Part shown: positions 1 to 57,508 of the stretch, piece after piece
Position numbering within the stretch: the first letter of the stretch is position 1
Layout: every line of letters starts with the position of its first letter
From: Octopus vulgaris
Lineage: Eukaryota
NCBI GenBank assembly: GCA_951406725.2
Contig: OX597816.1
Location: 744,001-808,000 of the forward strand
DNA length: 64,000 nucleotides
Reading direction: 5' to 3'
The notes under the pieces: model-generated
Database searches by the model: none
Seen by the model: only the letters and a program-made list of their open reading frames with translations
What the model was told of the DNA's origin: nothing
Position numbers and translations under genes: made by a program

Positions 1-655
1 GATACAAGAAGGAAGGTATGCACAGGTGGACTGACTACGTCCCAGGTAGGGGCCACGGGTTATGGCCTGACTAGTCTTGCCAGGTCTTCGGATGGTGTTT
101 TTATGTGCCACCGACACAGGTGCCAGATGAGGCTGGCAAACGGCCATGATCGGATGGTGTTTGTTACATGCCCACAGCACGGAGGCCAGTCGATGCGGTA
201 CTGGCTACGGTCACGTTCGGATGGTTTTCTTGTGTGCCACCGGCACTGGTACCACAAAGATACAAATTCCATTGATGTTCATCTATTTTGATTTGTTTTG
301 ATTTGATTTGATTTTCACTTGCCTCAACAGGTCTTCACAAGTGTCACAAGAAGGAAGGTATGCACAGGTGGACTGACTACGTCCCAGGTAGGGGCCACGG
401 GTTATGGCCTGACTAGTCTTGCCAGGTCTTCGGATAGTGTTTTTATGTGCCACCGACACAGGTGCCAGATGAGGCTGGCAAACGGCCACGATCGGATGGT
501 GTTTGTTACGTGCCCACAGCACGGAGGCCAGACGATGCGGTACTGGCTACGGCCACGTTCGGATGGTTTTCTTGTGTGCCACCGGCACTGGTACCACAAA
601 GATACAAATTCCATTGATGTTCATCTATTTTGATTTGATTTGATTTGATTTGATT
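1..655 (-). repeat. Tandem duplication (342-bp unit, about 2 copies) of RTE LINE 3' UTR sequence
   Basis: ORFs 60..272 and 402..614 are near-identical and offset by 342 bp; the sequence matches the RTE 3' UTR at 40800-41100 and 56580-56920. Confidence 0.9.
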
Positions 656-681
656 TATATATATATATATATATATATATA

Positions 682-1561
682 TGGTATGGTCATGTGACGA
701 GAATGGCTGAAGATAGTTGTGTGCGAAAGTGCCACACCCTAGCAGTTGAGGAAACCTGTGGAAAAGGTAGACCCAGGAAAACCTGGGACGAGGTGGTGAA
801 GCGCGACCTTCGAACTTTAGGTCTCACCAAGGAAATGACTAGAGACCGAGACCTATGGAAGTATGCTGTGCGTGAGAAGACCCGGCAAGACTAGTGAGAA
901 CATAACCTGTGGCCTACATACCTTTCCTTCATGGGACACAAAACTCCACTTGTGAAGACCCGTTGAGGCAAGTGAAAATCAAAATCAAAATCAAAATCAA
1001 ACCAAATCAAATGAGATATAAGAAAGCAGAACCAAAATCGAAGTCGATTCAACATCAATGGAAACTGCAGCTGTGGTACCAGTGCCGGTGACAAGTAAGC
1101 GAACCATCCGATCGTGGCCGGTGACAAGTAAGCGAACCATCCGATCGTGGCCGTTGCCAGCGCCGCCCCGACTGGCCTCCGTGCTGGTGGCACGTAAAAG
1201 CACCATCTGTTCGTGTCCGTTGCCAGCCTCGCCTGGCCCCCGTGCCGGTGGCACATAGCACCATCTGTTCATGGCTGTTGCCAGCCTCGCCTGGCCCCTG
1301 TGCTGGTGGCACGTAAAAGCACCATCCGTTCATGGCCGTTTGCCAGCTCCGTCTGGCACCTGTGCGGGTGGCACGTAAAAAGCACCCACTACACTCACGG
1401 AGTGGTTGGCATTAGGAAGGGCATCCAGCCGTAGAAACACTGCCAGATCAGACTGGGCCTGATGCAGCCTTCTGGCTTCACAGACCCCAGTTGAACCATC
1501 CAACCCATGCTAGCATGGAAAGCGGATGCTAAATGTTGATGATGATGATGATGATGATGAT
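682..1561 (+). mobile_element. 5'-truncated RTE-clade LINE (ORF C-terminus, 3' UTR, (GAT)n tail)
   Basis: ORF 694..894 ends GKGRPRKTWDEVVKRDL; UTR minisatellite; CCAACCCATGCTAGCATGGAAAGCGGA followed by (GAT)n. Confidence 0.9.
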
Positions 1562-1683
1562 ATATATATACACATATATATATAATTAATAATAATAATA
1601 TGACAGCAAAAGAATGAATGAGACTGCGATATTATGTAAATAGAGGAGTTTATCTATAAATATAATATAAGACAATCATTTAG

Positions 1684-1757
1684 TTGTCATAATAAAACTC
1701 AAAGTTTCGGATGTCAAGGCTAAAGCCTGCTCGGCATCTCATCAGTTATTAAGACAA
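1684..1757 (-). ncRNA. Type I hammerhead ribozyme motif
   Basis: Minus strand: TTGTCTTAATAA-CTGATGA-GATGCCGAG..TTGACATC-C-GAAA-CT(TTG)A-GTT^-TTATTATGACAA; helix I 11/12 paired, core intact, GUU triplet. Confidence 0.7.
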
Positions 1758-1775
1758 ACTCTATAAGACGTACCT

Positions 1776-3094
1776 AGTGTAAGCTATGGACACATAAGAG
1801 ATGCAGCAATATCAAAGGAAGGCTAACTAGGAAAATAGTTTTTGTATGTGGCAGATGCTCAGGAGCAATAAATAACACTGAAAATGTGCAGAGAACAACT
1901 TCCACCACATTCCAGGGAGAAAAGCTAGAAGTAGTTGATAACTTCCGAGACCTAGGCGACAAAGTCAGTAGCAGGGTTGGCTGCACTGAAAGTGTAGCTG
2001 CTAGAATAAGAATAGCCTGGGTAAAGTTCGGAGAGCTCTTACCTCTGCTGGTGACAAAGGGCCTCTTGCGCAGAGTAAAAAGTAGACTGTATGATGCATG
2101 TGTATGAACAGCCATGCTACATAGCAGTGAAACATGAGCTGTGACTGCTGAGGACATGTGTAAGCTCACAAGGAATGAAGCCAGTATGCTCCGCTGGTTG
2201 TGTAATGTCAGTGTGCATGCTCGACAGAGTGTAAGTACTCAAGAGAAAAGTTGGACCTAAGAAGTTGGACCCAGATGTGGTGTGCAAGAGAGACGACTGT
2301 GCTGGCATGGCCATGTGGTGAGAATGAATGTGGATAGCTGTGTGAAAAAGTGTCACACCCTAGCGGTTGAGGGAACCTGTGGAAGAAGTAGACCGAGGAA
2401 AACCTGGGAAGAGGTGGTGAAGCACGACCTTCGAACATTCGGCCTCACCAAGACAATGACTAGTGACCAAGACCTTTGGAAATATGCTGTGCTTGGGAAG
2501 ACTCAGCAAGCCAAGTAATACCATAACCCATGGCCTATGCCAGGGGTGTAACCAGCCCACCTTTCCTTCATTGGACACTAAACTCTGCTTGCAAAAACCT
2601 GTTGAGGCAAGTCAAATTGAATCAAATTCGATGACTGGCACACATGATATTGGAGCACTAAGAGTACTATCCGAGTGTGATCGTTGCCAGAGCAGCTGAC
2701 TGGCTTCTGTGCTGGTGGCACATAAAAAGCACCATTCGAGCGTGATCGTTACCAGTGTTGCCTTACTGGCACTTGTGCCAGTAGCACATGAAAAATCATT
2801 CGAGCAAGGTCGTTGCCAGTGCCGCTGGACTGGCTCCTCAGCAGGTGGCACATAAAAAACACCATTTGAGCGTGGCTGTTGCCAGTACTGCCTGACTGGC
2901 CTTCATGCCGGTGGCACATAAAAGCACCCACTACACTCTTGGAGTGGTTGGTGTTAGGAAGGGCATCCAGCTGTAGAAACTCTGCCAGATCAGATTGGAG
3001 CCTGGTGCAGCCATCTGGTTCGCTAGACTTCAGTCAAATTTTCCAACCCAGGCTAGCATGGAAAGCGGACATTAAACGATGATGATGATGATGA
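1776..3094 (+). mobile_element. 5'-truncated, degenerate RTE LINE
   Basis: Translated LEVVDNFRDLG, RIRIAWVKFGEL, ERRLCWHGHVVRM, GRSRPRKTW; UTR repeats; (GAT)n tail about 3078-3094. Confidence 0.9.
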
Positions 3095-3719
3095 TTTAAA
3101 TTCGAATTTGATGTTTGTTCTTTGATCCATGTTTCTTCATATATATATATATACATATACAAAGAGATTGAAATAGATAGATACATACATACACACTCAC
3201 ACTCACACTTTCTGGCAATGTTATGACAAGCAAGTCTGACGAGTCATCAATATTACCAAGTGTAATAGTCATCATGAAACAGTTGGTAAAATTCTACTCA
3301 GTTATATTCTATAACCAGGAAGATAAAATTATAACCATTCTGCTTTACATTTTGAGTGGACTCTTATTTTGGACTTATGAAAAATCTGATGTGGGTGTGT
3401 GTGTGTGTTATATACGTATAGATACTCTTAAAGTAGTGCTTTGAAAACTTTCTTGATGCAGTTACAATTTCTAAAAGTAGATTTTCTTAAACTAAAATGC
3501 ATGAACTATAGAAAAGCCATTTTGGTTTCTCTCATCTATTTGTGCTTGTAGGTATTGAGCAGGCATGTTTTGCCATACTGTGTGGGATGAGTGGCAAAAT
3601 CTAAAACCTAAATATTGATGTGTGTCTATGTCTTTGTTGGAGGATAAGTGTCTCACTTTTATTTATCAGAATGTCCAAAAAGCGAACTTCCTTTTCATTC
3701 ATTTCTTTAGTAAATTGGA

Positions 3720-4108: not shown

Positions 4109-4299
4109 GGACTAATTATATACACTACTAGCATTATGACCCGGCGTTGCCGGGTCATAGTGCTAGTTTGGTATAAATTTGTTAAATTAAAAATTTGGGG
4201 TAATAAAACATACAATGACATATTAAAAAGACGAATCAAAATTCCAGAGAAAAATACATAGAAGATAAATATACAAATTTACAAAAATACATAAAAGTT

Positions 4300-4381
4300 C
4301 ATCTATAGGCTGTTTCGGAGATGCGCCAATTAATATGAAACATATCATATATTTAAAATTGACACTCCCCTCGTCAGGATG
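4300..4381 (-). ncRNA. Hammerhead ribozyme motif with long helix II, inside Helitron cargo
   Basis: Minus strand: CATC-CTGACGA-GGGGAGTGTCAATT..AATTGGCGCATCTCC-GAAA-CAG(C)CT-ATA^-GATG; core intact, one C.A mismatch in helix III. Confidence 0.65.
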
Positions 4382-4615
4382 TTTTTTACACACAACACAT
4401 AGTACACGGAAACAAATGCACAATTACATACCGGCTACATGCGAAAGACCAGACATTACGTACTCCCAAAAATTCTCATAGATACTGAATGCTACTTTAT
4501 AAGCATATGATTCAATCTAGCAGCTATAGTAAATGGTATGCGCACAACTCCATCTGGACTAATTCACTTCTGCACTCAAATTTTTAATCTTTTAATTTCT
4601 CCCATTCATGCAAAT

Positions 4616-5214
4616 CCACTCCGTGAGTGTAGTGGGTGCTTTTTACGTGCCTCCTGCACTGGTGCCAGGCGAGGCTGGCATCGGCCACGGTCGGATTGGT
4701 GCATTTTATGGAAGCCAGTCGAGGCGGCACTGGCTTCGGCTATGATTCGGATGGTGCTTTTTACGTGCCACCGACACGGAAGCCAGTCGAGGCGGCGCTG
4801 GCATTGGCCACAATTCGGATGGTGCATTTTATGGAAGCCAGTCGAGGCGGCACTGGCTTCGGCTACCGATTCAGATGGTGCTTTTTTACGTGCCACCGAC
4901 ACGGAAGCCAGTCGAGGCGGCGCTGGCATCGGTCACAATTCGGATAGTGCTTTTTATGTACCTCCAGTCCCAGGGCCCTGGCATCTGCCGGGTGCTAGTC
5001 ATAGGATTGGTTCAATTTCGATATCGATTTCACTTGCCCCAACAGGTCTTCGCAAGCAAGGGGGGTTGCCATAGGTGCCTGTCGTCGGATGAGGTTCGAT
5101 ATCGACTTTGCTTGCCTCAACAGGTCTTTGTGTGTTCAAGGTGGGAAAGGCATGCATAAGTGGGCTGGACTCACTTGTCCTGCCTGGTCTTCTCACGCAC
5201 AGCATATTTCCAAA
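4616..5214 (-). mobile_element. RTE 3' UTR fragment without terminal tail, inside Helitron
   Basis: Same UTR repeat units as other RTE copies; truncated at both ends; no (CAT)n. Confidence 0.85.
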
Positions 5215-5742
5215 TATTTATATATTACTATATATTTCTAAACGTCGGGCTTTATATCTGTTCTGTAGATATAAATGAATATATGAATATATGTATGTGT
5301 TTGATCTTTCTGTGGATTTTGTAGTGTTCTTGTAGTTGCTGCTCGCATTGTTCCCCTCAGATTAAAAAGTGTATACAGCTCATTTGAGCACTACTATTCC
5401 AATCTGTTATATATTTTGAGCGTTGTTGTCACTAATGATCTCAAGATATAACTTTATATTTTGTAATATATATATATATATAGATATATATATACATCCA
5501 TATACATACAATAGAGAGATGTTTTTGTTTCACTTTTAACACGTAATACTGAAATAGTGGAGAAGATATGATACTACTGTGGGCTCGCCCTAGGCAAGAA
5601 GTTAAACACTTTTTTTGCCCATGAAACTACATGGACCCTGAGTAAAATTTGTGTAAAATTTGAATGAAATTGGTTGTGTAGTTCTCAAGTTTTAGGGAAA
5701 CACACAGACAGACACACATTCTCAGTTTTATATATATAAAGA

Positions 5743-5935
5743 TTTATAATGGACAGATAGGTCTCCTCACCTTGTTTGTTGTTACCACAATGTTTTGGCT
5801 GATGTACTTTCCAGCCTTCATCAGGTGTTCCGGTGGAATTTCAAACCCACCTGATGAAGGTGCTGGAGCGTATATCTGCTGAAATGTTGTGGTAACAACA
5901 AACAAGGTGAGGACACCTATCCGTCCATTGCAAAT
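5743..5935. repeat. Long inverted repeat with a PLE-type hammerhead motif in each arm
   Basis: About 85-bp arms; plus arm CCAC-CTGATGA-A..GAAATGTT-GTGG (5847-5892); minus arm CTGATGA-A-GGCTG..CAGCC-AAAACATT-GTGG. Confidence 0.75.
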
Positions 5936-6555: not shown

Positions 6556-6637
6556 ATAATCAACACCATTACTAAAAGAAACTTCCTCTTCACAGATTAA
6601 CTCAAAACACATGGATTTGAAAAGTTGAACAATGAAA

Positions 6638-7419
6638 CATCATCATCATCATCATCGTTTAGCATCTGTTTTCCATGCTAGCATGGGTTGGACGGTTCTA
6701 CTGGGGTCTGTGAAGCCAGAAGGCTTCATCAGGCCCAGTCAAATCTGGCAGTGTTTCTACGGCTGGATGCCCTTCCTAACGCCAACCACTCCGTGAGTGT
6801 AGTGGGTGCTTTTTACGTGCCACCTGCACAGGTGCCAGACAGAGCTGGCAAACGGCCACGAACGGATGGTGCTTTTTATGTGCCACCGGCACGAGGGCCA
6901 GGCGAGGCTGGCAACGGACACGAACGGATGGTGCTTTTACGTGCCACCGGCACGAGGCCAGTCGGGGCGGCGCTGGCAACGGTCGCGAAACGGAAGGTTC
7001 TCTTACAAGCCACCGGCACTGGTAACACATCTGCAATTTCCATTGATCGATTTCGATTCTGATCCTCACTTGCCTCAACAGGTCTTCACAAGTAGAGTTT
7101 TGTGTCCCAAGAAGGGAAGGTATGCATACGTAGGCTGGCTCCATCCCATGTAGAAGGCCACGGGTTATGGACTCACTTGTCCTGCCGGGTCTTCTCGCGC
7201 ACAGCACACTTCCAGAGGTCTCGGTCTCTAGTCATTTCCTCAGTGAGACCTAAACTTCGAAGGTCGTGTTTCACCACCTCGTCCCAGGTTTTCCTGGGTC
7301 TGCCTCTTCCGCAGGTTCCCTCAACCGCTAGGGTGTGGCACTTTTTCACACAACTATCTTCATCCATTCTCGCCACATGACCATACCAGCGCAAACGTCT
7401 CTCTTGCACACCACAACTG
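6638..7419 (-). mobile_element. 5'-truncated RTE LINE
   Basis: ORF 7173..7448 ERRLRWYGHVARM..GRGRPRKTW; UTR; (CAT)n at 6638. Confidence 0.9.
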
Positions 7420-8882: not shown

Positions 8883-10270
8883 CATCATCATCATCATTTA
8901 ATGTCCGTTTTCCATGGTGGCTTGGGTTGGACGGTTTGACTGGGGTCTGGGAAGCCAGGAGGCTGCACCAGGTTCCAATCTGATCTGACAAGGTTTCTAC
9001 AGCTGGATGCCCTTCCTAATGCCAACCACTCTGAGAGTGTAGTGGGTGCATTTTTATGTGCCACCGGCACAGGAACCAGGGGGGGCTGGCATCAACCATA
9101 TTTGGATGGTGCTTTTACATGCCACTGGCATGGGAGCCAGTGAAGGTGGCACTAGCATCAGCCACATTCAGATAGAGCTTTTTACATGCCACTGGCACAG
9201 GACGATGGGGCTGGTATCAATCACGTTTGAATGATGCTTTTTACATGTCACCAGTACAGGGAGCCAGACAGGCAGTGCTGGCATCATCCACAACTACAAT
9301 TTCCATTTGATTGTAGTTTGATTTAATTTTGATTTTGATGTACTTGACTTAATAGGATTCTTCAAGCATGGTATGTCACCCTACAATCCAAGGTACTCTT
9401 GAGTGGGCTGGTTATGTGACACTGACGTAGGCTACAGCTGTGATCTCACCTTATTTGCCAGGTTTTCTCAGTTACAGCATATCTCCAGAGGTCTCGGTTA
9501 TTGCCTCTGTGAGGCCCAACATTCATAGGTCATGCTTCACCATCTTATCCCATGTCTTCCTGGGTTTCCCTCTACCACGGGTTCTTTCCACTGCTTGGGA
9601 GTGGCACTTCTTCACACAGCTCTCCTCCTCCATCTGTTATACATGACCATGCCAAAGTAGACATCTCTCTTGCACATTATATCCAATGCTTCTTATGTCC
9701 AACATTTCTCTCAGGGTGCTTACACTCTGTCGTGTGTGCACACTGACATTACACATCCAACAGATCATGCTAGCTTCATTTCTTTTGAGCCTACACATGT
9801 CTTCAGCATCCACGGCCCATGCATCATACAATCTACCTTTCACTCTGAGAGAGATGCCCTTTATCACCAGTAGGGGTAGAAGCTTTCTGAACTTTGCCCA
9901 GGCTATTCTTATTCTAACAGCTACACTCTCAGATCATCCACTCCCACTACAGACTTGGTTACCTAGGTAGTGGAAGCTATCAACTACTTCTAGTTTCTCC
10001 CCTTGGCATGTGATGGAATCTGTTTTCTGAGCACTTATGGTGTTTATTGCCCCTGTGCATATGCCACACACAAAAGCTATCTACCCAGTTAATCATCCTT
10101 TGATGTTGCTGCATCTCTGATGCATCCACAGCTTACACTGGGTACATCTTATAGAGTTTCCACCGACACCTTTTCTACAGATCTAGCAGGGCCATCTACC
10201 TGAAGGGGTGTGTGATGTGTTCACCTTCCTACTTACTAGGACTTTGGTTTTTGTGACATTGACTCTAAAA
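8883..10270 (-). mobile_element. Degenerate RTE LINE including a Cys-rich PHD-like segment
   Basis: Homology to other RTE copies; VNVTKTKVL, C4HC3 cluster, LEVVDSFHYLG; (CAT)n tail. Confidence 0.85.
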
Positions 10271-25857: not shown

Positions 25858-26354
25858 CTAGAAAAAGAAAAGGAAGAAAAAAGACTCAAATAAATATTCA
25901 AGGATGGATTGATGTGGCTATGGTTGGACAGGATGTGTTTAGAATAAATAACAAATCAGAAATTTCAAATCATAAACTAAATTCGATGCATGTTTTATGC
26001 TTTCATTTACACAAGCCTGGCTTCAATTTGATTTAAAACCAGTGAAGAATACATTACATTTTTGGTGGAGACAGCTGCTGAGGAACAATAAATAATAATA
26101 ATAATAACAACAACAACAACAATAGTAATCATAATAAATTTTTAAGACTAACATTTCACAATATTTATAATTTTGAAGAATGTTGATGAGTTTTTTCAAG
26201 GATGGTGGGCGAAGCTGAGTTGTCATTATGAAAGGTTGCATTGAGTATGAAACCTTTTTTCAAATCATATTTCTTCTCTATCCATTTCTTTACTTTTGTA
26301 AGATGTTTTCCATATATTAAATATTTAAACCAAAATTATGTTAAATTGTTTTAA

Positions 26355-26992
26355 TCATCATCATCATCATCATCATCATCGTTTAACGTCCGTTTTCCAT
26401 GCTTGCATGGGTTGGACGGTTCAACTGGGGTCTGGGAAGCCCGAAGGCTGTACCAGGCCAGTCAGATCTGGCAGTGTTTCTACAGCTGGATGCCCTTCCT
26501 AACGCCAACCACTCCGTGAGTGTAGTGGGTGCTTTTTATGTGCCACCGACACAGGTGCCAGACGAGGCTGGCGAACGGCCACGCTCGGATGGTGTTTTTT
26601 ACTTGCCACCGGCACTGAGGCCAGGCGAGGCTGGCACGGCCACGATCGGATGGTGTTTGTTACATGCCACCAGCACAGAGGCCAGTTGATACGGTACTGG
26701 CTATGGCCACGTTCGGATGGTTTTCTTATGTGCCACCGGCACTGGTATCACAAAACTACAAATTCCATTGATGTTCATCGATTTTGATTTGATTCTTTGA
26801 TTTTTGATTTTTTGATTTTCACTTGCCTCAACAGTTCTTCACAAGTAGAGTTATGTGTCCCAAGAAGGAAGGTATGCACAGGTGGACTGACTACGTCCCA
26901 GGTAGGGGCCATGGGTTATGGCCTCACTTGTCCTGCCGGGTCTTCTCGCGCACAGCATACTTCCAAAGGTCTCGGTCTCTGGTCATTTCCTC
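26355..26992 (-). mobile_element. 5'-truncated RTE LINE
   Basis: (CAT)n tail, UTR repeats, last ORF codons. Confidence 0.9.
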
Positions 26993-27645
26993 AAATCGCA
27001 TTTAAACATTTAAATTTCATATTATATCAGATTTGGTCATTTTATATAAAATTGCTATTTTTTATACATTTATTATCATATTTGTTTATTGTATCGGGAA
27101 AGCTTTATTTCAAGGAAGACTTGAAATTTTATTAAATATCTGCTGTAATTTATGGAAGAAAATTGGAACTGTGCATCCTATTTTGAATTATGAGGTTGAA
27201 TGGCTTAAGACAAGCAATTCAACAGAAAGTTCTCTATTCTGAACTCTATAGCACTAAGCACCATTTCTATCTATCTAGAATTTTGGGAAAAATAAATAGG
27301 AAGATAAAATTTTTTCTCTAAATTGTTTGAAGTAAGCTTAAGCATTGCTTAAAAATCATAGATATTCATTCAAACATGTGTGTGTGTGTGTGTGTTTGAA
27401 GGAAGGGAAAAGTGAAGACTAGCATGAAATATCGTTGATAGACATATAATTTTGTACAGGTCTGCTGGATCAGAGCTGAGCTATTGCTATGCAACACTGA
27501 CTTCTTTCATAAATCAAATTGTAACACTATTTACGGTATTTATTATTTGTTTCTCCAGAAGTAAATCAAGAAAAACAATTTGTGATTCTTTCTTTTTATT
27601 TGTTAACATCAATGACATTAAAACTTTCCTACTGAAGTCATTAAT

Positions 27646-28367: not shown

Positions 28368-28449
<82 letters not shown>

Positions 28450-29178
28450 TAGCATTAAAGACCCGTCGTTGCCGGGTCATAGTGCTAGTGCATGTATATA
28501 TGTGTATATATATGTGCACATATTACATGTACATCTATATATATACATCTACACATAAAATGCAAAATACAAAGTTATATCTTGATATCGCTAGTGATAA
28601 CAATACTCAAAATATATAACAGACTGGAATTGTTAGCCCGTCTCTTGTAATTTCGATCAATTGTATCTTGTCCTCCCTCTTGTATAGAAGTGTGGCTACA
28701 ATCCAGCCTACTTCTACTTCGGGGGGGCATTTAAAATTTTTTTCCGGGACGTCCTACATCCCATATATAAAGGTAAAAATAAAATATTTCCACTTTGCAA
28801 GTTCGAGTTGAGTACTCCCTGGCACGCTCCGTTGACTCGAACCTTGCTTCTATTGTGGCGAATTTACCGCCTCTGATTAGATATCTTTCATAGTCGCACC
28901 AAGACACTTTTCGAAGGTGCTTTCCTCCAAGTTGTTTTATTATTACCCACAAGGGGCGAACACAGATGGGACAATACATTCTGATGATGGGGTCAGACAA
29001 ACGAATGGGTTTTTACAATAAATCGGGTTTAAAAATTTTCATGAATAACAATAAATGGACAAAAATCGAGTGATAGGACAGACCGGAAGACATTACGGGT
29101 GAAGTGGGTGCGGGTTTAGCTCGGACCCCACGAGCCCCGCCTCCCCACTGATACTTTTGGTTGCACTTGGTATTACAT

Positions 29179-32100
29179 TTATGTTGTAACTTTCATTCGC
29201 AACTTCCGTGCTACATCCTTCCATCGTTCTTCATACGCTCTCCTAGTCAGGCATATTCTCTCCAGCCCTATCTTCCTTTTCAGGTGAAAGATGAAATAAT
29301 TCATCAAACCAGGGCCGGAGATGAACTTGCCTGACTGTAAACCTTTCATCTCGTCTTCCATATCACCTCTTTCGCGATTGCTACTACAACGAGAAAACGA
29401 AACTTACCTTCATTCACGAGGAAATCCGGTGGGTCAATTTTTGTAATCGACTCAGTCGACAGCTGTACTCTTCGTGTACCTGACAACAGGTGTTCGGCAT
29501 AAACCCACACCTCAGACACGTCCGGACAATGAACAATCGCGTGCGGGACGGTTTCCCTATCCCGCCCGCATCTTGGACATATCGGACTGTCTTGGCCACC
29601 GTGCCTTGCGAGTTTATCCCGAACAGGTAGAGCTCCTCTGTAGCATTGCCATGCCAGAGACTTCTGGAAGTTGTCCAGTGTCCTTGGCTCGAACGTACGT
29701 CGGAACAGACTGGCCAGCTGATTATCGTCGAGACCTAGGGTTTCCCCCAAGGTATCTTCACATTCCGCCTCTACCAACCCTCTATAGAAGAAAGTGGTGG
29801 AACCCCCACCGCAGGCGTTGCCCGAGCGACGGAATAGCAGGAGAGCCTTGCGACACTCCGTGTACCAAGTACCAAGTTTCGATCTACGACTCAGCCAGGT
29901 TTCCCATCCACCGAAACTAGTGAACTTGGGAAACATCAGTTTTGCTAGCGAAGACCACACCCATTCACCATCCAGGTAGAGCCACAGATGTCTTAACCTC
30001 AGCGCATGTCTGCGCATCATCAGCCAAGGCATCCCTAGCCCACCCTTTAACGGTTGTTGACAGCAAGTAGAGCGTTTCACAAGTGGTTTCCCGCCCTTCC
30101 ACAAGAAGTAGAAGAGCTGTCTTTCCAACTTGATCAACCACGAATCAGGGCAAGGAACGACGGAAAGGCGGTAGGTGATAACCGATGCGATAAACACATT
30201 GGCCACCTCCGCCCTCCCTTTCAGGGATAGCCACCGCCAAGACCAGGTCTTGGCTACTGCAGCCACCTTGCTCGTTACCTCGCCCCAATTCTTCTCTATT
30301 TGGAGGTCTGGACCGAACCAGACCCCTAGCAGTTTAATCGGACCCTCCGTCCAACGTCCCACGACGCTGTCAGGAGGCATCGACTTGCCTCTCCAGGTGC
30401 CGAGTTGCAAGCCGACTGACTTTTCGCGATTAACTTTTGCTCCTGTCACCGTCTCGTACACCTCTATGGCCTTGCCTACTTTACATAGGTGGTCCATTTC
30501 GGTTACGATGATGGTGATGTCATCCGCGTACGCTGACACTGATTTTCCATTACCTGGCTGTCTCGGGATGCCGCTCAGTTTTCGCAGTAATGGCTCAAGA
30601 GCCATCACGTACAAAAGCGGGGAGAGCGGACACCCTTGACGAACCGAGCGTTTGATTTTGAACGGCTTCGACAAGAAGCCGTTCACCCGAACTACCGAGT
30701 CGATGTTATCATAAATTTCGATAATCCACCTGAGGAATCCAAGGCTCAGCCCGAACTGTGCCAGGGCAGATACCAGGTAACGATGGTCGACCCTATCAAA
30801 AGCTTTAGATTGGTCTAAATGGACCAGTGCCCCACCCTTGCCAGAATCACTATTAAACCCCTCTATAGTGTACCGCATTAGATGGAGATTATCCTGAATG
30901 GATCTGCCCGGAACGGCACATGTCTGTGCCCCTCCGATCAGACCATCCGCGACACGCGCCAATCTTTTCGATAACACTTTGGCCAAAATCTTCAACTCTG
31001 TGTTTAGCAGAGTGATGGGCCTGAAATTATCAATGCACTCCCCCTTGCTCGGGTCCTTTCTGACGAGAGTCACTACTCCCCGGCGCACAGATCTGGGTAT
31101 AAGCCCGTTCTGCTGCCAGTTCGCGTAGACCTCCGCCAGTAGGTGCCCGAACAAGTCTGGCATACTCTTATATAACTCATAGGGTAGACCATCCAAACCC
31201 GGCGCCTTGCCCGCGCCGCAGTCCGCCATTGCCTCAACCACCTCCTCAGGCGTGATTGGCCCTTCACAGCCCTCCGCATCTCGCCCCGATAAGCGCGGCA
31301 GACCGTCGAGTAGGTCCGTAAAGGCCCTCCTCCTATGCAGTCCGCCGCACTCACCGAAAAGCTGAGCGAAGTGCTCCTGAAAGGCCTCACACATCTCCTC
31401 GGGTTCGTTTATCAACTCACCTTGTTGGTTCGTCAAAGATTGAATCGTGGCATCGTTACCATGCTGAGCTTCCACCACTCGGGCCCATCTCACGGCGTTG
31501 ATTCCTTCACATCCCATATGACGGATTCTAGCCCTGACAATGCAGCCCATGTGTTTGGCCTCGAGGTGCTGGTTTAACACCAGTCTCTTGGCCGCCACCT
31601 GAGCCGCAGAGCCAGTTTTCATGGCTTCCTCTAATTCCTTAACTAGAGTAGTTTCCCTTCTAGCCTCTCTAGCCACTACTCCTATGCTATATCTAATAGA
31701 CTCAAACTTGATGGCTCGTTTGAGGGCGTACCACCATTTGTTATTAATGATGGTACCAGATAGTGCCCTCTGAATTATATTCCTAATCCGGTCTTTGTAC
31801 TCCTTAATCGCCAAAAGGGACGTATTAAGTTTCCAGTAACCGGATCCTCTATTTTTAACCTTATCTATGTCAAGCTTACAAGTGACCATTTTATGATCAC
31901 TGTAGCTGATCGGGTAAAACTGTGGACACTTAGCTATTTTACTGTCTACTTTTCTAATTAGTATTCTATCTAGATACGACCTGGAAGATCCGTCGCTGTT
32001 TGACCATGTCCACAATGGAGCGTTCGGAAATTCCAGCCTATAAGGATCTGCTAGCTCAAAGCGGCTTAGCAGTTCCATGAAGCCACTGTTGCCTTTTCTA

Positions 32101-32573
32101 TCTGGACACGAGCCAACATAATCTACATCCGCTTTGCAAATTGTGTTAAAGTCTCCTAGCACCACTAATGAATGCGAAGTACCAAGAAAGTTTTCTAGTT
32201 CACGAAAATAATCACTTTGCCCTGTATGGTTGGGTGCGTAAATTGCAACCAGTCTGATAACTTTACCATTACTGAACGTCAAATCCATGACGACCAGCCT
32301 ACCTTCTGGATCTGCAAAAATTAACTTTTTCTCAGAAACCCGGTTTCTTTTTAATAGGACCAACACCCCACTCCCGCCTGTAGGACTGCCAGGAGAGAAA
32401 AAACTCTCGTAGCCGTCAAACAGCGGGAGTAGACCTCTTGGCCCCTCTAGCCGGGTTTCTGTAGCAACAATAACATCTAAATTACGCGACCTGATATCAT
32501 GCAGGAAGCGACCTTGCTTCCAGCCTGCTCCCAGGCCGCGCACATTTAAACAACCAACATAAATGTAATCCAT
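29179..32573 (-). CDS. LINE ORF2: AP endonuclease, reverse transcriptase, C-terminal zinc finger; 1-nt frameshift near 29347
   Basis: 1075-aa ORF with LNVRGL, YAPN, GDFN, YLDRI, SDH; PGLDG, RPITLLN, KAFDRV, RQGCPLSP, YADD; CPRC..HAIVHC; ORF 29179..29361 continues it (..WKTR/MKGLQ..). Confidence 0.95.
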
Positions 32574-32587
32574 TACTTACCTTTATA

Positions 32588-33959
32588 TCAGTGGTTCGGT
32601 TTTTCTTCTTCTTCCTTCTCTTTTTCTGGGCCTCGTGGGGGAGTCTGACGTAGGCCCTCGAATATATGTGGAGATGTTACATCCAACCTAAGTGGGCCTA
32701 CGTCATGGAAGAAATCTGACTTTATCCGCCCGTAATCCTTCCGGTCTATTTTGTAAATTGCAAAGTCATTTTTTTCTCTACTCTCTTCACATTGGCCATG
32801 GCTGCCAACACGTTTCCGAGTCTGCTATTTGATGCTTTTACAGCCATATATGAGTTTATTGACTCTTTTTTCTTTTTTAAAATTACTCTGGGAGGGGTGG
32901 TTTCCGTTTTTCTTTTTTTTTTTCCGATAATTTTTGCCCACCCCTCCTCATTTATCTTTTCTTCGCTCTTTTTTTCCTCCGCCGCTGGTTCTGCTGTTAC
33001 CATCACCTCCACACCTTCAGTCTTCCCATCTGGGCCGTCTGACGCTGCTTCTGATGACACATTGTCTTCTTTTCCTTTTGGCTTAGGTGCTTCCTGCGGT
33101 TTGGGTTGGGGCTGGCATTCCGCCCTTACATGCCCCTTCTTACCGCAGCCGAAGCACCTCGGCTTTCTGCCCTCTACGAAGACTGTGACTCTTTCATCTT
33201 CGCTTATCCTAAGAGTCTCTGGGATCTCTTCCAGGGTTTGTACTTCTGCTTGTATGGCTATTATTATCTTTTGCCCTTTCCAGAATTCTTCTTCTTCTAC
33301 GGTGGCCTGGAGGATGTTTATTTTTTCCTCCAGGCCTACCATAACTGCTGCCACTAGGACTTCGGCATCCGCTTCTGGCGGGATGTTGTTCATAGTGATT
33401 TTGGAAGTTCTCTTGCCTTTATACAGGGGTAGGAGAACAATATCCTCTGCTTTTATGGGTTCCATGGATAGCTTCTTTGCTACCTCCTCTGACGTGAATC
33501 TCACCTCCACTGTGCCGTATTTCTTCCCTCGATTGATATACGTAATTTTGTCCATTATTGGCTTTAAGCAGTTTTCAATCTTTTTCTCTTCTATTTTTTG
33601 GATTGCTCTGTTTGTTATACTGAATGTCTTATAGATTATTCTCCTATTCGAAATATCCTCTTGTATTTTGGCGTTTGAAGCCACGGTTACTTCTGTGCCC
33701 TCTTTTGACACACAGTCTGCATGTTTTCCCAGGTTGTCCACGTTAATTTTTTTAATTTTCTTCCCAGCCACTTCAGCGAATTTTTTTGCTGGAGTTGATG
33801 CTGGTACTGGTTTTACCATTTTCTTGGGCGACGCCGCCTCTTTTTCTTCGGCGACAGCGCCTCTTTTTTTTTTGGCGACAACGCCTCTTTTTTACTTGGC
33901 GACAACGCCGGGTATTCCTCCTCGCTCGTCACGGGCGAATAAGTGATGGGGGACTCCAT
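32588..33959 (-). CDS. LINE ORF1, gag-like with CCHC knuckle; core 32746..33819, probably extended at both ends across 1-nt homopolymer frameshifts
   Basis: CFGCGKKGHVRAEC; adding one A at 33841-45 links ATG 33959 (MESPITYSP..SPKK repeats); adding one A at 32769-75 opens the frame to TGA 32588. Confidence 0.85.
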
Positions 33960-34888
33960 TTTGAACAAATGGCTTTAACAAGCCTTTGTTTATCTAAATT
34001 GATTGTAGTTTTCCCCCACTGAGGGGGAACACCAACGCGAAGTCTTCGCGCGAAGGTTGACTTCGTCCGTTAGACAACAATGGACAAAAAAAAGGTAGAT
34101 CAACAGTATATAATAACAGAGATAAGTAGTATGAGAGCAAAAATATATATCAACTTACTAATAACACAATAAATTGATTTCCTCCATGTTGTTCAAATCT
34201 TCTTTTTTCTCTACATTGTATACTTTAAAGACAATAGTCTTTTCTTTAATTTAATTTTTTATTACCCATCTGGACTATTCCATTTCTACATGCTAATTTT
34301 ATTTTTAATTTATTCCCATTCATGTGAAACCACTTATTCAAGTTCAAATCATTGATGCAATTTTATACCAATTGCTATTTTTACTTGTGTTATGTTACTT
34401 TAGTTTGATTTTAATTATTACTTACTACATATAATTCAATTGTTATTATTATTTTTATTGTTAAAGTGAAAGTGTCTGACATAAAATAGAGAAACGTTTT
34501 TGTTTCACTTTTAACATGTAATACTGAAATAGTGGAGAAGATATGATATTGCTATGGGCTCGCTCTAGGCAAGAAGTTGAGCATTTGTTTTCCCATGACA
34601 CTACATGGACCCTAAGTAAGGCATGTGTAAAATTTGAATGGAATTGGTTGTGTAGTTCTCAAGTTTTAGGGAATCGTAGTGGAGAAGATATGATATTGCT
34701 GTGGGTTTGCCCTAGGCAAAAAGTTAAAAAATATTTTTGCCGATGACACTCCCCGGACCCTAAGTAAGGCATGTGTAAAATTTGAATGAAATTGGTTGTG
34801 TAGTTCTCAAGTTTTAGGGAAACAGACAGACAGACACACATTCTCAGTTTTATATATATAAAGATATATATATAGAATGTACCTACAA

Positions 34889-35185
34889 TCATCATCATCA
34901 TCATCATCATTTAGCGTCCGTTTTCCATGCTAGCATGGGTTGGACGGTTCAACTGGGGTCTGGGGAGCCCGAAGGCTGCACCAGGCCAGTCAGATCTGGC
35001 AGTGTTTCTACAGCTGGATGCCCTTCCTAACGCCAACCACTCCGAGAGTGTAGTGGGTGATTTTATGTGCCACCGACACAGGTGCCAGACGAGGCTGGCG
35101 AACGGCCACGCTCGGATGGTGTTTTTATGTGCCACCGACACAGGTGCCAGACGAGGCTGGCAGACGGCCACGCTCGGATGGTGTT
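34889..35185 (-). mobile_element. RTE 3' fragment
   Basis: (CAT)n tail and two UTR units. Confidence 0.9.
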
Positions 35186-40394: not shown

Positions 40395-41433
40395 ATGTGT
40401 ACGAACAGCTATGCTACATGGCAGTGAAACATGGGCCGTGACTGCTGAGGACATGCGTAAGCTCGTGAGGAACGAAGCCAGTATGCTCCGATGGATGTGT
40501 AATGTCAGTGTACTTACTCGACAGAGCGTTAGTACCTTGAGAGAAATGTTGTACCTAAGAAGCATCAGTTGTTGTGTGCAAGAGAGACGATTGCGCTGGT
40601 ATGGTCATGTGGCGAGAATGGATGAAGATAGGTGTGTGAGAAAGTGCCAATCCCTAGCAGTTGAGGGAACCCGTGGAAGAGGTAGACCCAGGAAAACCTG
40701 GGACGAGGTGGTGAAGCACGACCTTCGGACGTTAGGTCTCACCATGGAAATGACTAGAGACCGAGACCTATGGAAGTATGCTGTGCGTGAGAAGACCCGG
40801 CAAGACTAGTGAAGCCATAATCCGTGGCCCCTACCTGGGACGTAGTCAGTCCACCTGTGCATACCTTCCTTCTTGTGACACTTGTGAAGACCTGTTGAGG
40901 CAAGTGAGAATCGAATCGTATCAAATCAAATCGAACCAAATCAAAATAGATGAACATCAATGGAATTTGTATCCTTGTGGTACCAGTGCCGGTGGCACAT
41001 AAGAAAACCATCCGAACGTGACCGTAGCCAGTACCGCAATGACTGGCCTCCGTGCTGAGGGCACGTAACAAACACCATCCGAGCGTGGCCGTCCGCCAGC
41101 CTCGTCTGGCACCTGTGTCGGTGACACATAAGAAAACACCATCCGAGCGTGGCCGTCTGCCAGCCTCGTCTGGCACCTGTGTCGGTGGCACATAAAAAAC
41201 ACCATCCGAGCGTGGCCGTCTGCCAGCCTCGTCTGGCACCTGTGTCGGTGGCACATAAAATCACCCACTACACTCTCGGAGTGGTTGGCGTTAGGAAGGG
41301 CATCCAGCTGTAGAAACACTGCCAGATCTGACTGGCCTGGTGCAGCCTTCGGGCTTCCCAGACCCCAGTTGAACCGTCCAACCCATGCTAGCATGGAAAG
41401 CGGACGTTAAACGATGATGATGATGATGATGAT
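40395..41433 (+). mobile_element. Young 5'-truncated RTE LINE
   Basis: Open ORF 40411..40809 (HGSETW..ERRLRWYGHV..GRGRPRKTW); UTR; (GAT)n. Confidence 0.92.
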
Positions 41434-41447
41434 TATTATTATTATTA

Positions 41448-41499
<52 letters not shown>

Positions 41500-41500
<1 letters not shown>

Positions 41501-43690
41501 TCATATACCCTAAACAGCTTAGACTATTGGAAAAGAAAAATTACTAACATTGGGCTACAACAAGTGAAAGACATTTTACCCTCACTTTCCATAGTCTCTA
41601 TAATTAAAATGCCTTGGTCTTGGTACTTTGCTATTTTCTCTATACCTCCAATTTTGACTTTCTCATCATTTGGAGCTGTAAAGTTAATTACCTGGCACTT
41701 TCTATTCTCTTTATTTACGACTGCTAAATCAGGCCTTCTATCTTTTATTACTCTTTCTTTTATTACTCTAGCTTTTATTCTAGCTTTTATTACTCTATCA
41801 GTCTGAATGTTAAAGTCCCACATCTTGTACTTCTTACTTTCTAGCACTTTACTAGCTTCATGTTCATACCATTTATCAGTATGTTTAAATCCTAGCTTTC
41901 TACAAAGCTCCCAGTAGATACCTCTCCCTCGATTGTCATGTCTTTTCTTGTACTCTTTCTGTGCCAGCATGTTACATTCACTTATTATATGAGTAACACT
42001 TTCCTCTTTTGATTTACATAACCTACCTGGTTTTTGTCTATCTTGGCTTTTATCCAATTAGTCCTCAATGCTTGATCTTGTACTGTTGCTAACAAACTTT
42101 CTGTCTCCCTTTTCAGCCTTCCTTTCTGCAGCCTTAACTCTCACTACTACTATTTGATGCAATTATCTTTGGGAATCTACCATGCAAAGCCTTCCTTTGC
42201 CAGTCAGATAACCTTTCTTCTTTTTTCTGCTTTTTAACGTCATTCGGCTTTTTGGTTTCCCTATGTCCTACTGCGACTGAAGTAGCTCCTAATAAACTTC
42301 CTTTAATATTACCTACATAGGAGTCTGTATCTATTCTTATTTCTTTATTGCCCACAAGGGGCTAAACACAGAGGGGACAAACAAGGACAGACAAAGGGAT
42401 TAAGTCGATTACATCGACCCCAGTGCGTCACTGGTACTTAATTTATTGACCCCAAAAGGATGAAAGGCAAAGTCAACCTTGGCGGAATTTGAACTCAGAA
42501 TGCAGCAGCGGACGAAATACCACAAAGCATTTCGCCCGGCTTGCTAACGTTTCTGCCAGCTCGCCACCTTACTGTATCTATTCTAGCTAATCCATGCAGT
42601 CTTCCACTGATATTAACCCTCTGCCACCTTCCTTTCTAGGTAATTATAGTCTTACTACTCCAGCCTTTGGGTAGAGCCCCCCATTCACATTGAATTTCAT
42701 TCCAGTTCTTCTGTCTAGCTTCGTTAATTCAGATTTTGTCCAGTCTACAAAAGCTGCTGAGTATCTAAGTAATGACATTATCCAAGTATTTACAGCCTTC
42801 ATTAGATTTGAACCATTTAGCTTTGACTTCATTAGCTTCCTCACCCTTCTGATGTACTCCTTCTTGATTTTTGTTTTCATTTCTGTAGTTAGTACTCTGT
42901 CCGATTCTAATATTCTTAGATACTTATAACATAACTCTCTCCTCCTTTCAACAATTTTAATGTCTGGCAATTGGATGCCATCAGTGCTGGCTACATGTCC
43001 CTTTAAAATGACTAATATTGCAGATTTATCTATGCTAAATTCCATGCCTATATCTTCGTTGAAGAGTCTTCCAGTTTGTTTTAAGGAATCTATTCCTTTT
43101 TTATTCTTACTAAAAAGCTTCAGATCATCCATGTAGAGTGAAAGGTTAATTTTTCCTTTACTATTTCTAAACTGGTACCCTGCCTTTGCCTTCCTTAATA
43201 TTAAACTGAGGCAGATTAAACATAAGACAAATATTAAAGGGGATAACAAGTCCCCTTGGAAAATTCCTCTCTTGATATTAACTTTTGCTAAGGCTATGTC
43301 ACCTGAGTAGAGATCTACTTTCCATTTCTTCTAATTAATTCTTTTCTGCTATGCTGAATATTCTCAAACATTCACATATCCATAAGTGTGGAATCATGTC
43401 ATCGGATTTCTATGCCATTGTTAGATTTTCCCTTCTAGTTTTCACTTCATTTAGAACTGCTTTGTCTATGTATAATAGATTGAATGTTTCTCTAGCCTTC
43501 TTCCTGCAACCTTTCTGTTCTTCTGGCAGTCAAGGTGCTTGTAAATGCTTTCTGATAGCACTCTTGTCAACAGCTTTTACACTAATGGTAAGCAAATAAT
43601 TACCAGCTGTATTGCCCTTGCTTTTGTCATTCATAAGGAGCACTATTCTCCCTCTAGTCATCCAATCTGGTATTACCCCTCAGTTCAGGC
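41500..43690 (-). mobile_element. R4/Dong-like LINE relic (RT + CCHC + RLE) beside (TTA)n
   Basis: EEQKGC, GIFQGDLLSPL, YMDDLKL, ESVTHIISEC, WDFNIQTD, RRPDLAV, KIAKYQD. Confidence 0.9.
42338..42571 (-). mobile_element. Full-length tRNA-derived SINE with 13-bp TSD, inserted in the R4 relic
   Basis: A box TGGCAGAAACG, B box GAGTTCAAATTCC, core GCCTTTCATCCTTTTGGGGTC..AAGTACCAG; TSD CTGTATCTATTCT at 42325-42337 and 42572-42584. Confidence 0.92.
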
Positions 43691-56367: not shown

Positions 56368-57508
56368 ATCATCATCGTCGTTTAACGTCCGCTTTCCATG
56401 CTAGCATGGGTTGGACGGTTCAACTGGGGTCTGGCGGGCCCGAAGGCTGCACCAGGCCAGTCAGATCTGGTAGAGTTTCTACAGCTGGATGCTCTTCCTA
56501 ACGCCAACCACTCTGAGAGTGTAGTGGGTGATTTTATGTGCCACTGATACAGGTGCCAGACGAGGCTGGCAGACGGCCACACTCGGATGGTGTTTTTTAT
56601 GTGCCACCGACACAGGTGCCAGACGAGGCTGGTGAATGGCCACGATCGGATGGTGTTTGTTACGTGCCCACAGCACGGAGGCCAGTCGATGCGGTACTGG
56701 CTACGGCCACGTTCGGATGGTTTTCTTATGTGCCACCGGCACTGGTACCACAAAGATACAAACTCCATTGATGTTCATCTATTTTGATTTGGTTTGATTT
56801 TGATTTTCACTTGCCTCAACAGGTCTTCACAAGTGTCACAAGAAGGAAGGTATGCACAGGTGGACTGACTACGTCCCAGGTAGGGGCCACAGGTTATGGC
56901 CTCACTTGGCTTGCCGGGTCTTCTCACGCATAGCATACTTCCATAGGTCTCGGTCTCTAGTCATTTCCTTGGTGAGACCTAAAGTTCGATGGTCGTGCTT
57001 CACCACCTCGTCCCAGGTTTTCCTGGGTCTACCTCTTCAACAGGTTCCCTCAACTGCTAGGGTGTAGGACTTTTGCACACAACTATCTTCAGCCATTCTC
57101 GTCACATGACCATACCAGTACAGCCGTCTCTCTTGCACACCACAACTGATGCTTCTTAAGTTCAACTTTTCTCTCAAGGTACTTACACTCTGTCGATTAT
57201 GAACACTGACATTACACATCCATCGGAGCATACTGGCTTCATTTCTTGCGAGCTTACGCATATCCTCAGCAGTCATGGCCCATGTTTCACTACCATGTAG
57301 CATGGCTGTACGTACACATGCATCATACAGTCTGCCTTTTACTCTGAGCGAGAGGCCTTTTGTCACCAGCAGGGGTAAGAGCTCTCTAAACTTTGCCCAG
57401 GCTATTCTTACTCTAGCCGTTACACTTTCAGCACACCCACCCCCGCTACTGACTTGGTCACCTAGGTAGCGGAAGCTATCAACTACTTCTAGTTTGTCTC
57501 CCTGGAAC
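56368..57508 (-). mobile_element. Young 5'-truncated RTE LINE
   Basis: ORF 57037..57510 LEVVDSFRYLG..HGSETW..ERRLYWYGHV; UTR; tail. Confidence 0.92.

What the first reader, a model, noticed from the sequence alone, without database searches (positions are those of the whole stretch)
28449..34864. Near-complete Tx1/L1 retrotransposon carried inside a non-autonomous Helitron
Seen: the same Helitron 5' module and 3' hairpin-CTAG that bound 4128-5742 enclose the whole 5.1-kb LINE, and I found no TSD at the LINE ends. Known: Helitrons capture flanking DNA; Tx1-clade elements are often target-specific, and Xenopus Tx1L inserts into the DNA transposon Tx1D. Inference: either a Tx1 family that targets this Helitron, or rolling-circle spread of a captured LINE as a composite transposon.
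Basis: partly seen in the sequence, partly recalled or inferred. Interest (0 to 1): 0.75.

Follow-up and report, generated by a model that had tools for sequence, protein, structure and literature searches.

The report
LINE homing into a Helitron site
A young jumping gene in an octopus genome, together with several partner elements that kept only its RNA-binding gene, inserts again and again at one exact spot inside a small rolling-circle transposon, a spot lying in a broken piece of a related jumping gene that the transposon likely picked up earlier; it is not carried around as one composite unit.

Summary
The nesting is real, but 'no TSD' is wrong: a 12-bp duplication flanks the LINE. This is site-specific retrotransposition, not composite rolling-circle spread. 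Of 50 LINE 3' ends examined, 39 sit at the same Helitron base. Among 38 filled loci, pairs whose LINEs differ by ≤1% have Helitron halves 2.7% or more apart, median 6.4%. Empty sites are common: 297 exact matches. The same site collects head-to-tail arrays of 1.7–1.9-kb ORF1-only elements, seven sequence clusters. The site lies inside a decayed Tx1-type ORF1 fragment carried by the Helitron. Sister families insert about 30 nt behind TATA boxes in unrelated targets (held-out 5 of 11 exact, shuffles never reach it); for this family the promoter link is unproven. Tx1 elements that target DNA transposons are known (PMC4494074); I found no paper on a Helitron target, ORF1-only targeted partners or TATA-spaced insertion. 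This scan noted the arrays and TATA spacing before on other DNA of this genome.

The parts
34190..34864 (-). 5' half of a non-autonomous Helitron; starts TC after A; holds a 145-bp tandem duplication (34530-34673 / 34677-34821, 88%)
   Evidence: sequence; self-BLAST; 5' ends of empty copies
34190..34247 (-). upstream part of the captured, decayed Tx1-type ORF1 fragment; its codons form two TATA-like heptamers (34229-34223, mutated in this copy; 34222-34216)
34178..34189 (-). 5' copy of the 12-bp target-site duplication
28933..34177 (-). L1/Tx1-type LINE, full length, 5,245 bp; 18 other near-full copies 94-100% identical; 145 exact 3'-end 28-mers genome-wide
32746..33959 (-). ORF1 (CCHC knuckle; RRM-type region inferred from the partner model); frameshift near 33890 in this copy
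29346..32573 (-). ORF2: APE endonuclease, reverse transcriptase, zf-RVT; ends early by a frameshift near 29348
   Evidence: Pfam PF03372, PF00078, PF13966
28921..28932 (-). 3' copy of the target-site duplication (one mismatch)
28637..28920 (-). downstream part of the captured ORF1 fragment (frameshifted)
   Evidence: ORF1 profile E 3.5e-7 in the best frame of this window half (Z=1000)
28449..28920 (-). 3' half of the Helitron, ending in a hairpin and CTAG followed by T
4128..5742 (-). related non-autonomous Helitron with the same termini but without the ORF1 fragment

Best explanation
A young L1/Tx1-type LINE inserts again and again at one exact base inside already-dispersed copies of a 1.15-kb non-autonomous Helitron, likely by target-primed reverse transcription after a sequence-directed nick, leaving a 12-bp duplication. 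Shown: same site, TSD, empty sites, independent insertion, 5'-truncated copies. Shown: the same zone collects head-to-tail arrays of ORF1-only elements that share the LINE's 3' terminal motif, and the zone lies in a decayed Tx1-type ORF1 fragment; a longer Helitron variant also carries the matching 5' UTR-like region and a TATA-like piece. Inferred: the Helitron captured the 5' end of an older Tx1-type element, amplified it to several hundred copies, and so supplied a harmless multi-copy landing site. Inferred: the ORF1-only elements are moved in trans by this or a sister LINE. Inferred (about 0.55): sequence (endonuclease and/or pairing of the RNA 3' end) sets the exact base, while the lineage's habit of landing about 30 nt behind TATA boxes likely explains why this zone was adopted.
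For: 39 of 50 LINE-type 3' ends examined lie at the 12-mer (33 followed by the Helitron 3' half, 6 by another array unit), 3 more at a second Helitron position. 25 of 29 non-self hits to the Helitron 3' half are empty; 297 exact empty 28-mers. LINE versus Helitron divergence: 10 young loci 0.25-1.0% versus 4.3% or more; 248 pairs with LINE ≤1% have Helitron halves ≥2.7%, median 6.4%. A variant target (L013/L065) is repeated at array junctions, as a TSD would be. 45 ORF1-only units from 15 regions, 7 clusters, no ORF2 hit; modelled as tandem RRM plus knuckle. ORF1 profile hits 25 of 25 empty Helitrons, 0 of 100 base-shuffled controls; 63% DNA identity over 252 nt to a sister ORF1. The nick stays on the same base although spacing to the nearer TATA-like motif is 29-33 nt; 6 of 8 off-site 3' ends begin ACAT or ACCT.
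Against: 8 of 50 3' ends lie outside the Helitron, so specificity is strong but not absolute. Junctions are not uniform: family C insertions lose 11-12 target bases instead of duplicating them, and some junctions repeat 30-70 bases; a single nick model does not explain these. The donor of the ORF1 fragment was not found (closest relatives only about 63% DNA identity). No activity was measured; frameshifts in A-runs may be real or assembly errors.
Confidence: 0.85

Rival explanations
1. Position-guided targeting: the integration machinery finds RNA polymerase II start sites (about 28-31 nt behind a TATA box), and the Helitron site is chosen because ORF1 codons in the captured fragment happen to form TATA-like boxes; inserted elements then borrow that promoter.
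For: In the sister clade (support 1.0), TATAWAW starts -33 to -24 from the TSD in 7 of 17 distinct targets exactly and 12 of 17 with one mismatch; background windows average 0.35 and 1.9. Held-out targets: 5 of 11 and 7 of 11; 0 of 2000 dinucleotide shuffles reach either. In this Helitron, B/C/D heads join 28 nt after TATAAAG, one family-B nick is at +28, and the LINE nick is 32 nt after the second motif. Older family-D relatives sit 27-29 nt behind TATA-like motifs in other repeats (read by eye).
Against: The LINE nick is +39 from the better motif. Filled and empty Helitrons keep TATAAAG equally often (28 of 31 versus 18 of 22; low power); the window copy has it mutated and L005 lacks both motifs yet is filled. 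With one mismatch allowed, 5 of 11 held-out windows also hold the motif on the reverse strand, so only the exact test is strand-specific (0 of 11). The outgroup family inserts in (ATT)n without such spacing being tested. No transcription-start data.
Confidence: 0.35
2. Composite transposon: the Helitron captured the LINE once and spread Helitron plus LINE by rolling-circle transposition.
For: Both Helitron termini are intact around the LINE, so occasional mobilisation of a filled copy is possible.
Against: No pair of 38 filled loci has Helitron halves closer than 2.2%; nearest neighbours of filled halves are mostly empty copies; 5' neighbours and array content differ between loci; TSDs and 5' truncations are present.
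Confidence: 0.03
3. Chance nested insertion of a randomly inserting LINE.
For: The genome is repeat-rich and the Helitron has hundreds of copies.
Against: 39 of 50 3' ends at one base.
Confidence: 0.005
4. The LINE's original target is the ORF1 of another Tx1 family (LINE parasitising a LINE), and the Helitron only multiplied that target.
For: The site lies within ORF1-derived sequence.
Against: No intact or interrupted donor ORF1 carrying the site turned up among 50 sister loci searched by DNA; none of the 50 3' ends ran into a sister ORF1 outside the Helitron as judged from the printed junctions; the LINE copies are much younger than the decayed fragment.
Confidence: 0.07

Closest known systems
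Tx1L in Tx1D (Xenopus); Tx1-Mar and SINEU in Mariner-N4_AMi; Tx1-9_AMi in Harbinger; Tx1-8_Crp in LTR elements (PMC4494074: passages and section 15 read)
   Same: APE-type LINE that prefers one position in a non-autonomous DNA transposon; non-autonomous passengers share the target and form tandem insertions around a TSD.
   Different: Host is a Helitron; passengers are 1.7-1.9-kb protein-coding ORF1-only elements, not SINEs; the site lies in a captured Tx1-type ORF1 piece; sister families show TATA spacing.
HAL1 (half-L1) (PMC5753468, passages; the original paper PMC2923044 was not held)
   Same: Non-autonomous LINE derivatives that encode only ORF1p.
   Different: Described there for mammalian L1; here from a Tx1-like octopus lineage, seven clusters whose ORF1s are 31-38% identical to the LINE's, site-specific and stacked head to tail.
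HeT-A with TART/TAHRE at Drosophila telomeres (search listing PMC5537684; details recalled)
   Same: ORF1-only element and autonomous partner build mixed head-to-tail arrays.
   Different: Jockey-type, chromosome ends, host function; here internal sites in a transposon, no host function shown.
Ty3 at Pol III start sites and Tf1 at Pol II promoters (recalled; PMC5911963 seen only as a listing)
   Same: Insertion placed relative to transcription machinery, as in the rival reading.
   Different: LTR retrotransposons with integrase; here a non-LTR element, and the link is statistical only.

Membership tests
Helitron (non-autonomous, TC...CTAG type) | 5' TC and 3' CTRR termini | tested here: met
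   sequence
Helitron (non-autonomous, TC...CTAG type) | subterminal 3' hairpin | tested here: met
   z -5.18; the stem is longer than usual and includes the terminal CTAG
Helitron (non-autonomous, TC...CTAG type) | insertion between A and T without TSD | tested here: met
   A before TC in the window; T follows the 3' end in 38 of 41 copies; pre-insertion alleles not seen
Helitron (non-autonomous, TC...CTAG type) | a RepHel-coding partner with the same termini | tested here: inconclusive
   150 RepHel matches; of 10 loci fetched, one shares only about 31 AT-rich 5' bases and none the 3' hairpin
L1 group / Tx1 clade | ORF2 with APE endonuclease, RT and C-terminal zinc motif | tested here: met
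   best solved relative human L1 ORF2p, E 6e-65
L1 group / Tx1 clade | ORF1 with RRM-type domains and CCHC knuckle | tested here: inconclusive
   knuckle E 0.061 in the window ORF1; partner model matches tandem RRM proteins; no profile match to the ZCCHC3-type ORF1 of fish homologues beyond the knuckle
L1 group / Tx1 clade | TSD and 5' truncation (TPRT marks) | tested here: met
L1 group / Tx1 clade | RT phylogeny with named Tx1 members | not testable with these tools
   no labelled Tx1 protein was returned; the tree holds only unnamed homologues, so 'Tx1' is a working label
L1 group / Tx1 clade | target-sequence preference (over 20% of flanks, criterion in PMC4494074) | tested here: met
   39 of 50
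HAL1-like ORF1-only retroposons (partners) | one ORF1-type frame, no ORF2 | tested here: met
HAL1-like ORF1-only retroposons (partners) | 3' end shared with an autonomous LINE | tested here: met
   common terminal motif; no significant shared RNA fold (z -0.6 to -2.0)
HAL1-like ORF1-only retroposons (partners) | derived from mammalian L1 | tested here: not met
   octopus lineage; works like HAL1, not a member
HAL1-like ORF1-only retroposons (partners) | mobilised in trans by ORF2p | not testable with these tools
   inference from structure and junctions
composite (Helitron-mobilised) transposon | copies with near-identical carrier and cargo at different loci | tested here: not met

The most novel reading that the evidence does not exclude
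A non-LTR retrotransposon lineage integrates at RNA polymerase II start sites and borrows the promoter; a Helitron that captured one such promoter-plus-Tx1 5' end copied it across the genome, and the decayed ORF1 codons now act as a TATA box that recruits two autonomous LINE families and at least seven ORF1-only partners into growing arrays: a transposon-made safe haven built from the invader's own gene.
Probability: 0.3. Interest if true: 0.82.

Novelty: new variant of a known kind. Interest (0 to 1): 0.6.

Why it matters
It gives a young, multi-copy natural system with filled and empty sites for asking how APE-type LINEs choose targets and change them. Closely related families use a Helitron, other repeats, (ATT)n and TATA-spaced unique sites. 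If position relative to a promoter or the RNA end contributes, that is a targeting rule I did not find described for LINEs and is relevant to retrotransposon-based gene insertion. It also extends ORF1-only non-autonomous elements beyond the mammalian and Drosophila cases and shows Helitron capture creating a new landing site. The basic habit (Tx1 into DNA transposons) is already in print.

Tried and rejected
Composite spread and chance nesting: rejected. RNA-editing marks in LINE copies (lead from e1-8663012): not seen in 19 near-full copies, private A>G 39, T>C 21, G>A 50, C>T 38; partners were not tested. Array polarity by age: nearest-neighbour identities by position gave no clear gradient. 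Donor of the ORF1 fragment: not found. Autonomous Helitron partner: not found among 10 loci. Structured RNA in targets: no Rfam hit in 11 loci. Conserved 3' RNA hairpin: not significant. Expression: no RNA holder listed as on record; laid contigs show the empty joined form in all 4 runs but cannot show starts. TATA status of filled versus empty sites: no difference, low power. Dropped rows: 17 of 58 loci gave no usable non-tandem TSD (incomplete, no pair, no TSD or tandem) before the 41 used; one search gave 47 units, 2 were LINE fragments; one search covers 20 listed places with already-studied copies skipped; 5' ends of off-site copies were not examined. Literature: 8 searches found no Helitron target, targeted ORF1-only partner or TATA-spaced LINE; PMC2923044 and PMC85248 were not held; Repbase Reports and subscription journals are not searched; supplements of PMC4494074 and PMC13282606 were not read and may list such families.
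Full report
Observation. The window lies in a 2.8-Gb animal genome; proteins 83-99% identical to one partner ORF1 are labelled Octopus vulgaris by their sources, so the host is an octopus. On the minus strand a Helitron-type element starts with TC at 34864 after an A and ends with a hairpin and CTAG at 28449 before a T. Inside lies a 5,245-bp LINE with ORF1 and an APE-RT-zinc-finger ORF2. The element at 4128-5742 shares the termini but not the interior. The window copy has frameshifts in both ORFs; 15 of 18 other near-full copies have an open ORF2.

Target specificity. A genome search gave 19 near-full copies at 94-100% (19 of 9,762 candidates scored). Their 3' ends mostly run into the same Helitron sequence. 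An exact 28-mer for the LINE 3' end occurs 145 times. Of the first 30 in genome order, 21 are followed by the target and the Helitron 3' half, 5 by the target 12-mer and another array unit, 1 by a second Helitron position, 3 by other DNA, two of these without a LINE body. Of 20 further places (already-studied copies skipped), the counts are 12, 1, 2 and 5. Together 39 of 50 are at the site. Empty sites are abundant: 25 of 29 non-self hits and 297 exact 28-mers. 5'-truncated copies occur at the site (L075, L141).

Composite test. If Helitron and LINE moved together, sister loci would be equally close in both parts. In 10 young loci the LINEs differ by 0.25-1.0% and the Helitron halves by at least 4.3%. 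In 38 filled loci (703 pairs) the lowest Helitron distance is 2.2%; the 248 pairs with LINEs within 1% have Helitron halves at least 2.7% apart, median 6.4%. The LINE therefore entered Helitron copies that had already diverged. A rare mobilisation of a filled copy is not excluded by this sample.

ORF1-only partners. Upstream of many LINE copies lie head-to-tail arrays of 1.66-1.93-kb units that hit ORF1 (31-38% identity) and not ORF2. I cut out 45 units from 15 regions; they fall into 7 clusters at 90%. Intact ones encode 440-490 aa with a CCHC knuckle; a model (mean pLDDT 59, core 70-85) matches tandem-RRM proteins. All share the LINE's 3' terminal motif. Searched on their own, 30 of 30 family-C loci have another unit, the LINE or a Helitron half on at least one side; one family-C array lies outside the Helitron. 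Families B, C and D share a short head, and new units join inside that head. Trans mobilisation by ORF2p is inferred.

The target is old ORF1. The Helitron interior around the site translates, across frameshifts, to about residues 75-197 of the LINE's ORF1. A profile of 17 ORF1 sequences hits all 25 empty Helitrons (best frame E 1e-5 or better at Z=1000), none of 100 base-shuffled controls (a weak control) and not the 4128-5742 element. The nearest relatives are sister ORF1s at 63% DNA identity over 252 nt. A longer, empty variant (L050) adds about 630 bp: a TATA-like piece, a UTR-like stretch and the ORF1 start (blastx E 1.8e-13). A second autonomous family (ORF2 about 57% identical) inserts into that added piece in L247 and L249. 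The simplest reading, inferred, is capture of a Tx1-type 5' end with its upstream flank, then internal deletion to the window-type element.

How the site is chosen. The window family is sister (support 1.0) to a clade whose members hit many unrelated targets; an (ATT)n-targeting family lies outside both. I noticed TATA boxes about 30 nt upstream of TSDs in 18 loci (note) and then fetched 40 more. Of 58 loci, 41 gave a non-tandem TSD, forming 17 distinct targets: TATAWAW starts at -33 to -24 in 7 exactly and 12 with one mismatch, against background means of 0.35 and 1.9. In the 11 held-out targets the counts are 5 and 7, never reached in 2,000 shuffles. That spacing equals the TATA-to-start distance of polymerase II promoters (own knowledge). 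In the Helitron, ORF1 codons form two TATA-like heptamers; B/C/D heads join at +28 from the first and the LINE nick is +39 from the first and +32 from the second. Against a strict promoter rule: the nick stays on one base while spacing varies 29-33 nt, L005 lacks both motifs, the window copy has the first mutated, and filled and empty sites keep it equally (28 of 31, 18 of 22). Six of 8 off-site 3' ends begin ACAT or ACCT. I therefore commit to sequence setting the base for this family, with promoter position as a likely contributor. Target deletions and 30-70-base duplications at some junctions remain unexplained.

Comparison with print. PMC4494074 (passages and section 15 read) lists Tx1 in the piggyBac Tx1D, Tx1-Mar and SINEU in Mariner-N4, Tx1-9_AMi in Harbingers and two families in LTR elements, with tandem SINEU-3 insertions. 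PMC5753468 (passages) describes HAL1 as ORF1-only L1 derivatives of mammals. PMC13282606 (passages) counts 13 recently active L1-Tx1 and 8 Helitron families in O. vulgaris; its main text has no hit for 'ORF1' or 'nested'. Eight searches found no Helitron target, targeted ORF1-only partner or TATA-spaced LINE; HeT-A, Ty3 and Tf1 comparisons are recalled. Tx1 membership by phylogeny could not be tested, as no named Tx1 protein was returned.

Earlier scan notes. e1-8663012 reports the ORF1-only chains in Helitrons, and e1-8671901 and e1-9501798 the TATA spacing, on other DNA of this genome. My notes on both predate reading them; they are not counted as support.

Verdict. Real, site-specific retrotransposition into a Helitron; a new variant of a known kind, with an open and testable question about promoter-guided targeting. 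Interest 0.6.

Noticed in passing
L247, L249, L050 (G000:C1:2.11 Mb; C5:29.18 Mb; C10:0.63 Mb): Longer Helitron variant with a TATA-like piece, UTR-like stretch and ORF1 start; a second autonomous LINE family inserts there and forms 5.28-kb tandem arrays (six ORF1 hits in a row on C5).
   Followed up: partly
L182-L211: Sister LINE family (ORF2 about 60% identical) ending in (ATT)n tracts and forming 5.87-kb tandem arrays on C4, C47 and C50.
   Followed up: partly
L168-L171, L176-L178: Older family-D relatives sit in other repeats: an element that looks like a solo LTR (87-93% group) and one that resembles a Penelope/hammerhead-type end (75-83% group); both labels are from recall, Rfam gave no hit. 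Suggests target switching over time.
   Followed up: partly
L016, L070, L173 (G000:C30:1.29 Mb): A 5'-clipped LINE copy inserted in a 41-bp tandem satellite.
   Followed up: partly
L152, L338, L339: Three LINE-type 3' ends join the Helitron about 290 bp downstream of the usual site, at a short microhomology: second site or deletion.
   Followed up: no
L181 (G000:C4:80.13 Mb): A further ORF1-only-like family (about 26% to the LINE ORF1) in 2.5-kb tandem units beside a family-C array that lies outside the Helitron.
   Followed up: no
window 28533-28633 and 5393-5493: A 101-bp segment shared by the two Helitron families in opposite orientation (82%).
   Followed up: no
window 5742-5935: Roughly 200-bp imperfect palindrome (79%) right beside the 5' end of the 4128-5742 Helitron, probably a MITE.
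   Followed up: no
window 1-3100, 4608-4965, 6635-7419, 8883-10159, 26354-26993, 34887-35185, 40395-41475, 56368-57507: Many truncated copies of an abundant LINE-derived repeat with (CAT)n ends and internal tandem units (RTE-like by recall); one sits inside the 4128-5742 Helitron.
   Followed up: no
window 41524-43330: Decayed reverse-transcriptase frames on the minus strand, another LINE type.
   Followed up: no
G000: Many RepHel frames of 1,500-1,750 aa without stops: several Helitron families look recently active.
   Followed up: partly
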